A stretch of 45,557 nt of DNA, taken from positions 1 through 45,557 of the IMG/VR virus record IMGVR_UViG_2703719354_000009. One strand, written 5' to 3'. Below, piece after piece: positions 45,327 to 45,557 of the stretch (position 1 is the first letter of the stretch; the number at the start of each line of letters is the position of its first letter). The position numbers and the translations under genes were made by a program. Origin of the DNA: a virus (taxonomy: Duplodnaviria; Heunggongvirae; Uroviricota; Caudoviricetes). The notes under the pieces were generated by a model. That model ran no database searches and was not told the origin of the DNA. It saw only the letters and a list, made by a program, of their open reading frames with translations.

Positions 45327-45422
45327 AAAATCAAAGAGTTACCCCATATTTAAATACACCACGTTTCCTCCTGTGCCGCATTTGTGCCATTGTAACCTTG
45401 GCAATTCATCAAAATACTGTTC

Positions 45423-45557
45423 TGAACCGCCCCGGGAATCCTGGAGACTAAACTTCCTGAGAAAGAGGTAAACAGGATGACTAAAAATACTCGTTTTTCC
45501 CCTGAAGTCCGTCAACGGGCAGTCCGTATGGTTCTGGAAAGTCAGGGCGAATATGAC
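45423..45557 (+). mobile_element. Left end of an IS3-family insertion sequence (IS629/IS1203-like), truncated by the window edge
   Basis: Terminal sequence TGAACCGCCCCGGGAATCCTGGAGACTAAACT... followed by an orfA start; recalled as the IS629-type left end. Confidence 0.7.
45477..45557 (+). CDS. IS3-family transposase OrfA, N-terminal fragment (partial)
   Basis: MTKNTRFSPEVRQRAVRMVLESQGEYD matches the IS629/IS1203 OrfA N-terminus as recalled; AGAGG upstream. Confidence 0.7.
   Translation, partial: MTKNTRFSPEVRQRAVRMVLESQGEYD

What the first reader, a model, noticed from the sequence alone, without database searches (positions are those of the whole stretch)
45327..45557. IS3-family element just beyond attR, and a phage-arm-like sequence on the bacterial side of attR
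Past the 48-bp core, the attL phage arm (TAAATCAATAAGTTACAC) and the sequence right of attR (AAAATCAAAGAGTTACCC) remain similar by eye (about 15 of 18 positions). That is unexpected if the right side were naive chromosome. It suggests the thrW site already carried an integrated element whose arm is preserved there, with this prophage inserted in tandem and an IS629-like element starting 96 bp further on.
Basis: inference. Interest (0 to 1): 0.4.

Follow-up and report, generated by a model that had tools for sequence, protein, structure and literature searches.

The report
Integrase fossil beside thrW attachment site
The DNA just right of this prophage's attR is standard E. coli chromosome, but its first 66 bases are the decayed tail of an older phage's integrase module, which explains the resemblance to the resident phage arm; this is an ordinary kind of genomic scar.

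Summary
The 48-bp core repeat is exact (8212-8259 and 45279-45326). The two flanks match at 14 of 18 positions, not 15 (anchored chance about 2-5e-5). An IS3-family element (IS629/IS1203 group) starts at 45423, exactly 96 nt past the core.

The right flank is not a present-day tandem island. thrW joined directly to this flank, 100% identical, occurs in 1642 of 5426 complete E. coli genomes, and there it leads into yagP'-paoDCBA.

This "empty-site" flank is nevertheless second-hand. Window 45327-45392 aligns colinearly, from the same offset after the tRNA end, with the P' arm and last 17 codons of a P22/SfX-family integrase. That integrase is the type carried by live coliphages HK446, mEp043 and ECP1 (82-87% identity, E about 1e-15 to 1e-17). 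The fossil has a 1-nt frameshift and a breakpoint after 45392. Versions of about 204 nt in other E. coli are annotated as integrase pseudogenes.

The 18-nt resemblance to the resident SfV-like arm is what the two modules still share there: an IHF-consensus box and the int stop codon. The IS is a separate insertion.

The parts
8182..8257 (+). thrW, tRNA-Thr(CGT). Its 3' 46 nt belong to the attL core.
   Evidence: ARAGORN; flanked upstream by proBA, phoE, crl, frsA, gpt, pepD-sized ORFs (proA/tRNA-Thr annotation under the match)
8212..8259 (+). attL copy of the 48-bp core, running from the anticodon loop to the tRNA 3' end plus TT
   Evidence: Exact repeat limits computed; phage homology (SfIV, SfV, SfII, SfI) starts exactly at 8212
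8260..8277 (+). P' arm junction of the resident SfV-like prophage. It holds an IHF-consensus box (WATCAANNNNTTR) at 8262-8274 that overlaps the int stop codon at 8272-8274.
   Evidence: Sequence; box position conserved in 22 of 120 thrW-core flanks against 0.19 expected. IHF binding itself is inferred.
8272..9435 (-). int of the resident prophage, 387 aa, a P22/SfX-family tyrosine recombinase
   Evidence: ORF; 99.5% nt identity to SfIV and 99.1% to SfV int-xis; Pfam PF00589, E 1e-47
45242..45261 (-). Inverted copy of the box in the phage P arm (17/20 complementary to 45328-45347). An IHF-like box with one mismatch lies at 45248-45260. Candidate H site.
   Evidence: the repeat finder I1; a similar motif sits at a similar distance from the core in SfI and HK446 P arms. 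Function is inferred.
45279..45326 (+). attR copy of the 48-bp core (displaced 3' part of thrW)
45327..45392 (-). Fossil of an older P22/SfX-family int-attP module (HK446/mEp043 type). It comprises a 12-nt P' spacer with an IHF-consensus box (45329-45341), a stop codon (45339-45341) and the last 17 int codons with a 1-nt deletion. Breakpoint after 45392.
   Evidence: Colinear blastn anchored at the tRNA end: 85.9% to the Enterobacter pasteurii int 3' end (E 4e-16), 82.6% to Shimwellia (E 4e-15), 81% to phage HK446 (E 3e-15). Translations NGTNAAQE / NVVYLNMG* against intact NGTNTAQEENVVYLNAR*. Longer alleles are annotated as integrase pseudogenes.
45393..45422 (.). Spacer between the fossil and the IS. 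It is the same sequence as in empty-site E. coli, where 27 more nt lead to the yagP' stop codon.
   Evidence: 100% identity to KSC1031 and to 1642 empty sites; K-12 sequence; alignment
45423..45557 (+). Left end of an IS3-family element (IS629/IS1203 group). The inverted repeat starts TGAACCGCCCC. orfA starts at ATG 45477 (MTKNTRFSPEVRQRAVRMVLESQGEYD...) and is cut by the window end.
   Evidence: 100% identity over 135 nt to copies annotated IS3 family transposase in many E. coli; matches in 3558 of 5426 genomes; IS1203-family annotation for about 96%-identical copies

Best explanation
The window holds an SfV/SfIV-like prophage integrated in thrW. The sequence to the right of attR is the canonical E. 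coli flank of thrW. That flank is itself a scar of an earlier integration by a phage of the same (P22/SfX) integrase family, of the type now carried by coliphages HK446, HK542, mEp043, mEp213 and ECP1.

Inferred history. The earlier prophage integrated at thrW and put its own copy of the tRNA 3' end, its P' arm and its int gene directly after the tRNA. A later deletion removed nearly all of it. What remained was the tRNA, the 12-nt P' spacer, the int stop codon and the last 17 codons (66 nt, now frameshifted). Because the reconstituted thrW stayed intact, the site stayed usable. When the SfV-like phage integrated, the fossil was displaced to the far side of attR and now plays the role of the 'bacterial' B' arm.

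Why the resemblance stops at 18 nt. The resident P' arm and the fossil resemble each other only over the first 18 nt because that is the one stretch the two diverged modules still share there: an IHF-consensus box abutting the tRNA end, overlapping the int stop codon. The codons for the Int C-terminal tail just beyond it have diverged between the two types.

The IS. The IS3-family element is an independent insertion 30 nt beyond the fossil's breakpoint, in the spacer before yagP'.

Shown: the homology, the frameshift, the breakpoint and the distribution. Inferred: the order of events and IHF binding.
For: 1. Flank of empty sites. thrW joined to window 45327-45422 is contiguous and 100% identical in 1642 of 5426 complete E. 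coli genomes. Downstream lie yagP'-paoDCBA-yagU.

2. Integrase homology. The first 68 nt after CACCA align colinearly with int 3' ends that start at the same offset: Enterobacter pasteurii 87.5% (E 3e-17), Shimwellia 84%, Kluyvera 79%, Salmonella diarizonae 78%, phage HK446 82.6% (E 1e-16), with a single 1-nt gap. All lose alignment after ...GTGCCATTG.

3. Intact genes elsewhere. In Shimwellia, Kluyvera and Pseudescherichia the homologous ORF is a full 386-389 aa integrase ending ...NGTNTAQEENVVYLNAR*. It is 99.5% identical to the HK446/HK542/ECP1 integrases and 56% identical to the window's Int. HK446's record annotates its attP as similar to thrW and ptwF.

4. Longer alleles in E. coli. Strains F2_81 and S37 carry 203-204-nt versions at the same place. 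They are 90% identical to HK446 over 219 nt and are annotated by PGAP as integrase pseudogenes. F2_81 shares the same 1-nt deletion as K-12 and the window.

5. Translation. The fossil reads NGTNAAQE, then a frameshift, then NVVYLNMG*.

6. A general pattern. Of 120 thrW-core copies from species-representative genomes, 19 are followed by a tblastn-detectable P22-family int. Six are full length, one is cut by the end of the fetched locus, and 12 are C-terminal fragments.

7. The box. A perfect WATCAANNNNTTR occurs in 30 of 120 flanks, 22 at the identical offset, against 0.19 expected.
Against: - The fossil is short (66 nt), so its assignment rests on DNA alignment plus anchoring, not on a protein-level hit.
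- Megablast finds it in 3541 of 5426 E. coli genomes, not all, so 'fixed in the species' would be too strong.
- The window ends inside the IS, so this genome could still carry something unusual further right.
- IHF binding to the box was not tested here, and the primary P22 att papers could not be read.
Confidence: 0.85

Rival explanations
1. This strain carries a second, resident integrated element (CP4-6-like island or another prophage) immediately right of attR. The SfV-like prophage is in tandem with it, and the IS lies inside or at the edge of that element.
For: Tandem arrays at thrW do exist. SfV-like int genes follow partial, non-tRNA core copies in S. flexneri SFBU1023 and E. coli ECMA0423. 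In E. coli F2_81 an SfV-like attR is followed by a 203-nt int pseudogene, an IS3 copy and a defence island. The window ends in the IS, so the downstream content is unseen.
Against: All 96 nt between the core and the IS are 100% identical to the empty-site flank that leads to yagP'-pao in 1642 genomes. They include the K-12-type breakpoint at 45392, which differs from the F2_81-type long relic. CP4-6's left arm is a different sequence after the shared box. No fetched locus shares this IS junction.
Confidence: 0.07
2. Host-to-phage direction. The flank is native thrW trailer DNA, and phages of this family copied it, together with the tRNA 3' end, into their attP. The similarity would then reflect capture of host sequence or selection to mimic the tRNA's 3' trailer.
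For: attP sites of tRNA-integrating phages do carry host-identical tRNA 3' segments. The IHF-like box abuts the tRNA end in many unrelated flank families, including CP4-6's arm whose int lies at the other end. That could suggest a site-linked rather than phage-linked feature.
Against: In phages and intact prophages the homologous 54 nt are the in-frame C-terminal codons and stop codon of a 386-aa integrase. The E. coli copy has a frameshift and is cut off after 17 codons. Longer E. coli alleles continue for 204 nt into int coding sequence with an internal stop. Decay therefore runs from gene to fossil.
Confidence: 0.05
3. Chance resemblance of two AT-rich sequences.
For: Only 18 nt are involved, and both flanks are AT-rich.
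Against: The anchored 14/18 match has a probability of about 2-5e-5. The same box recurs at the same offset in 22 independent flanks. The flank has E 1e-15 to 1e-17 homology to int 3' ends.
Confidence: 0.01

Closest known systems
attP-int modules of P22/SfX-family lambdoid phages that integrate in thrW (P22, ST64T, L, ES18, SfV, SfII, SfI, SfIV, SfX; HK446, HK542, mEp043, mEp213, ECP1)
   Same: The core is identical to the thrW 3' end and starts in the anticodon loop. The int gene converges on the tRNA end, with its stop codon 14-16 nt after CCA. An IHF-consensus box fills the spacer. The resident prophage is a full member. The fossil matches the HK446 subtype.
   Different: The fossil keeps only the spacer, the stop codon and 17 codons. 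It is frameshifted and cannot encode anything functional.
Integrase pseudogenes and cryptic-prophage stubs next to tRNA genes (for example the PGAP-annotated 'integrase, incomplete' next to thrW in E. coli S37 and F2_81; from memory, P4-like int remnants at leuX and DLP12 int overlapping argU)
   Same: An N-terminally truncated int fragment abuts the tRNA 3' end and is left by deletion of the rest of the element. It is the same locus and the same gene family as in the S37 and F2_81 alleles.
   Different: It is much shorter (66 nt against about 204 nt), unannotated, and present in the flank normally regarded as the empty attB, including K-12 distal to CP4-6.
CP4-6 cryptic prophage of E. coli K-12 (thrW ... 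intF-ptwF)
   Same: It uses the same thrW core. Its left junction starts with the same box, AAAATCAAAnnGTTAC. The fossil described here is the sequence just outside its right end in K-12.
   Different: Its integrase is IntF, at the opposite end and transcribed away from the core. Its arm sequence is unrelated beyond about 20 nt. No CP4-6 DNA lies between attR and the IS in the window.
IS629 / IS1203 / IS3411 group of the IS3 family
   Same: The left inverted repeat begins TGAACCGCCCC and the OrfA N-terminus matches. The 135 nt are 100% identical to annotated copies.
   Different: Only 135 nt are visible. The right end, the frameshift site and the target duplication lie outside the window.

Membership tests
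SfV/P22-family prophage attR junction at thrW | Direct repeat of the thrW 3' segment (46-48 bp core) bounding the prophage | tested here: met
   Exact 48-bp repeat at 8212-8259 and 45279-45326; phage homology begins at the core edge
SfV/P22-family prophage attR junction at thrW | Cognate tyrosine integrase next to attL | tested here: met
   387-aa ORF at 8272-9435 (minus strand), PF00589 E 1e-47, 99% nt identity to SfIV/SfV int
Integrase gene fossil (P22/SfX family, HK446 subtype) | Colinear homology to the int 3' end, anchored at the same offset from the tRNA end | tested here: met
   Positions 1-68 align to positions 1-69 of int 3' ends at 77-87.5% identity, E 1e-8 to 3e-17
Integrase gene fossil (P22/SfX family, HK446 subtype) | Disrupted or truncated reading frame relative to intact homologues | tested here: met
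   1-nt deletion and loss of homology after 17 codons, against intact 386-389-aa genes
Integrase gene fossil (P22/SfX family, HK446 subtype) | Catalytic tyrosine-recombinase residues (R..HxxR..Y) | tested here: not met
   The fragment ends downstream of the catalytic Tyr region (...RYAHL... is absent). This is expected for a fossil: it is a remnant of the gene, not a member enzyme.
IHF binding site (H'-type site of an attP arm) | Match to WATCAANNNNTTR | tested here: met
   Perfect match at 8262-8274 and 45329-45341; 12/13 in inverted orientation at 45248-45260; enrichment at this offset in 120 flanks
IHF binding site (H'-type site of an attP arm) | IHF binding or footprint and an effect on recombination | not testable with these tools
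   A review table only states that P22 attP has IHF sites that are not essential (PMC4111918). The primary papers are not held.
   The flank equals the empty-site flank. The CP4-6 arm differs after the shared box.
   The window ends at 45557, inside the IS. No complete E. coli genome or fetched locus shares this IS junction.
IS3 family, IS629/IS1203 group | Terminal inverted repeat and an orfA start homologous to known copies | tested here: met
   135 of 135 nt identical to annotated IS3-family transposase copies; IS1203-family label on about 96%-identical copies
IS3 family, IS629/IS1203 group | orfA-orfB programmed frameshift, right inverted repeat, 3-bp target duplication | not testable with these tools
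   These lie beyond the window end

The most novel reading that the evidence does not exclude
The thrW attB treated as 'empty' (K-12-type flank, about two thirds of E. coli genomes) is second-hand. The 3' part of thrW and its trailer would be phage-derived. The retained IHF-consensus box in the fossil would make B' an active partner in recombination, for example by giving attR IHF bends on both sides of the core or by biasing integration and excision efficiency. This could help explain why thrW is such a hot, repeatedly reused site, and why C-terminal int stubs outnumber intact int genes next to thrW across Enterobacterales.
Probability: 0.15. Interest if true: 0.45.

Novelty: new member of a known kind. 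Interest (0 to 1): 0.25.

Why it matters
- It corrects how this junction should be annotated. The prophage ends at 45326; 45327-45392 is an unannotated integrase/att fossil belonging to the host backbone; the IS is separate.
- It shows that a 'phage-like' bacterial arm need not mean a tandem element.
- A flank defined as empty attB can itself be a relic. This matters for prophage-boundary callers and for reconstructing the history of the thrW hotspot.
- The phenomenon itself, int stubs next to tRNA genes, is well known, so the general significance is modest.

Tried and rejected
- Two statistics scripts timed out before a lighter version ran.
- A search of all fetched loci for the exact fossil-IS junction found nothing. 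No complete E. coli genome holds the whole 45100-45557 stretch as one piece, so the source genome's downstream region could not be recovered.
- Literature searches for a prior description of a thrW-adjacent integrase remnant found only general reviews.
- The primary P22 att/IHF papers (PMC93925, PMC2519534) are not held. H/H' site positions are therefore inferred from the consensus only.
- I looked for homology between the fossil and int beyond 45392. By eye there is faint similarity (TTGATG...), but neither blastn nor MAFFT supports it, so the breakpoint is placed at 45392.
- I considered that truncation of yagP' was caused by the old element. This was rejected: yagP' lacks its N-terminus on the paoD side, not the thrW side.
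- A Pfam scan of the 204-nt S37 relic failed because of its internal stop. I relied on DNA alignment and PGAP's annotation instead.

Full report
**What is at the coordinates**

The window carries the E. coli/Shigella backbone pepD-gpt-frsA-crl-phoE-proBA, followed by thrW (tRNA-Thr CGT, 8182-8257). A 37-kb prophage follows.
- Its integrase (8272-9435, minus strand, 387 aa, PF00589 E 1e-47) and xis are 98-99.5% identical at DNA level to Shigella phages SfIV, SfV, SfII and SfI. They are about 80% identical to P22-like Salmonella phages.
- An exact 48-bp repeat bounds the prophage: 8212-8259 (attL) and 45279-45326 (attR). Homology to the free phages begins exactly at 8212.
- At 45423 an IS3-family left end starts (TGAACCGCCCCGGG...; orfA ATG at 45477) and runs off the window. 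All 135 nt are 100% identical to many annotated IS3-family copies. Copies about 96% identical are labelled IS1203 family.

**Checking the flank similarity**

- For an alignment anchored at the core edge this is far beyond chance: 7 of 300,000 random window pairs, 1 of 200,000 local shuffles, binomial tail 5e-5.
- Beyond 18 nt the two flanks are not detectably similar as DNA.

**Is the right flank naive chromosome?**

In the operational sense, yes.
- I built a synthetic empty site by joining window 8060-8259 directly to 45327-45422. It is found contiguous and 100% identical in 1642 of 5426 complete E. coli genomes.
- In strain KSC1031, which has the same prophage right end and flank but no IS, the flank continues into a yagP pseudogene, paoDCBA and yagU.
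- In K-12 the same flank lies just outside the right end of CP4-6, before yagP.
- CP4-6's own left arm shares only the first about 16 nt (AAAATCAAAttGTTAC) and is otherwise unrelated.

Nothing in the 96 nt between attR and the IS therefore belongs to a resident tandem island.

**But the flank is second-hand**

I scanned one genome per species for the thrW 3' 32-mer. This gave 120 core copies. I listed their downstream flanks.
- A family of flanks in Kluyvera, Shimwellia, Pseudescherichia, Enterobacter, Salmonella diarizonae, Serratia and Erwinia resembles the E. coli flank over about 60 nt.
- In those genomes the sequence is the 3' end of an ORF on the minus strand whose stop codon lies 14-16 nt after the tRNA end. 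In three loci it is a full 386-389-aa integrase ending ...NGTNTAQEENVVYLNAR*.
- That integrase is 99.5% identical to those of the live coliphages HK446, HK542 and ECP1, and 99.2% to those of mEp213 and mEp043. HK446's record annotates its attP as similar to thrW and ptwF. It is 56% identical to the window's SfV-like Int, so it belongs to the same family.
- Blastn aligns positions 1-68 after CACCA of the K-12 and window flanks colinearly with positions 1-69 of these int 3' ends: 87.5% to E. pasteurii (E 3e-17), 84% to Shimwellia, 82.6% to HK446 (E 1e-16). There is one 1-nt gap. All alignments stop after ...GTGCCATTG, which is window 45392.
- The fossil reads NGTNAAQE, then a frameshift, then NVVYLNMG*.
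- E. coli strains S37 and F2_81 carry 203-204-nt versions at the same position. They are 90% identical to HK446 over 219 nt, and PGAP annotates them as incomplete integrase pseudogenes. F2_81 shares the 1-nt deletion with K-12 and the window.
- Megablast finds the short fossil in 3541 of 5426 E. coli genomes.

**Direction of descent**

The phage copies are in-frame ends of functional-length genes. The chromosomal copies are frameshifted and truncated. The chromosome therefore inherited the sequence from a phage, not the reverse.

**Why only 18 nt resemble the resident phage arm**

A MAFFT alignment of the SfV-type, P22-type and HK446-type modules shows homologous int genes throughout. The region coding the C-terminal tail has diverged (...[19 protein letters not shown] against ...SRNGTNTAQEENVVYLNAR*), while the spacer between the tRNA end and the stop codon is conserved.
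- That spacer is a perfect match to the IHF consensus WATCAANNNNTTR (8262-8274 and 45329-45341) and overlaps the stop codon.
- Across the 120 flanks, 30 have a perfect box in the first about 20 nt, 22 of them at the identical offset, against 0.19 expected from the background rate.
- A one-mismatch inverted copy lies in the phage P arm at 45248-45260.
- A review table records that P22 attP has IHF sites that are not essential (PMC4111918). The identity of this box with the published H' site is my inference, because the primary papers were not available.

**Generality**

Of the 120 thrW-core copies, 19 are followed by a tblastn-detectable P22-family int. Six are full length, one is cut by the end of the fetched locus, and 12 are C-terminal fragments of 31-204 residues. 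Shorter DNA-level stubs such as the E. coli one, and one in Enterobacter hormaechei, come on top of that. C-terminal int stubs next to thrW are thus commoner than intact genes. That fits deletions that remove a prophage but spare the tRNA.

**Mechanism and history (inferred)**

1. An HK446-type phage integrated at thrW.
2. A deletion removed all but the tRNA-proximal 66 nt in the K-12-type lineage, or about 204 nt in others.
3. The site stayed competent.
4. The SfV-like phage later integrated, and the fossil was displaced to the right of attR.
5. An IS629/IS1203-type element inserted 30 nt beyond the fossil's end, 27 nt short of the yagP' stop codon.

**Verdict**

The specific picture of a resident tandem or CP4-6-like element is not supported, and the flank is the ordinary E. 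coli backbone. The feature is a new, unannotated instance of a familiar kind of scar, so interest is low to moderate.

The main limit is that the window ends inside the IS, so this genome's downstream region remains unseen.

Noticed in passing
L003 449-470 (E. coli K-12 NC_000913.3 about 262,948-262,969): The K-12 thrW/CP4-6 left junction (TTAAAATCAAATTGTTACGTAAG...) resembles the P22/phage L P' arm (GTTAAATCAAATACTTACGTATT...) at about 17 of 21 positions by eye, including 'TTACGTA'. CP4-6's own integrase, intF, lies at the other end. The CP4-6 left edge may therefore also begin with a P22-type P' stub, which would make CP4-6 composite. Kluyvera ascorbata (L013) has the same arm.
   Followed up: partly
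window 45242-45261: A 20-nt segment of the phage P arm is 85% complementary to the fossil at 45328-45347 (ATGGGGTAATGCTTTGAATT / AAATCAAAGAGTTACCCCAT). It is closer to the fossil than to the phage's own P' arm. It contains an inverted IHF-like box. The extra CCCCAT match is not conserved in SfI and may be chance.
   Followed up: partly
window 42270-43319 (minus strand): The prophage carries an acyltransferase-family gene near attR, where SfI, SfV and P22-like phages carry gtrABC. This is a possible O-antigen acetylation cargo. The same gene is annotated in E. coli KSC1031.
   Followed up: no
L047, L072, L041 (S. flexneri SFBU1023; E. coli ECMA0423): SfV-like int genes (99.5% identical to the window's; one truncated to 152 residues) follow partial thrW cores rather than the full tRNA. 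ECMA0423 has at least two such copies about 16 kb apart. Real tandem arrays at thrW therefore exist in other genomes.
   Followed up: partly
L005-L124 (flanks listed): At least four other recurrent flank families follow thrW across genera. Examples: TCTCAACTTCCCCAAACGTCCG..., TTTCAAACTCTTCCCAAGTCTACC..., TCCTACCTATTTTAACGTCTCCC..., TCTTTTATCGTAAAATCATCAAGTTAC.... They are presumably arms of other element families that use the same tRNA gene.
   Followed up: no
NZ_CP026085.1 (E. coli DH5alpha), hit H52: The DH5alpha record has a contiguous, 100% identical empty thrW site as its only match, although K-12 MG1655 carries CP4-6 there. This implies precise loss of CP4-6 in that lineage or assembly.
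   Followed up: no
L064, L050, L025, L037, L048, L087, L106, L108: Exact matches to the thrW 3' 32-mer occur on contigs labelled Bacteroides, 'Candidatus Scatousia', Rhodocyclaceae, Pusillimonas, Advenella and Achromobacter. Some carry enterobacterial-type element arms, such as the Bacteroides MAG contig, which suggests mis-binned contigs. The Alcaligenaceae contigs seem to have a native identical tRNA 3' end.
   Followed up: no
L002 6989-13069 (E. coli F2_81): Right of an SfV-like attR and the 203-nt int pseudogene, this strain has the same kind of IS3 element. It is followed by an ash-family gene, a 3.2-kb RNA-directed DNA polymerase gene and an AbiEi/AbiEii pair, that is, a defence island at the thrW hotspot.
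   Followed up: no
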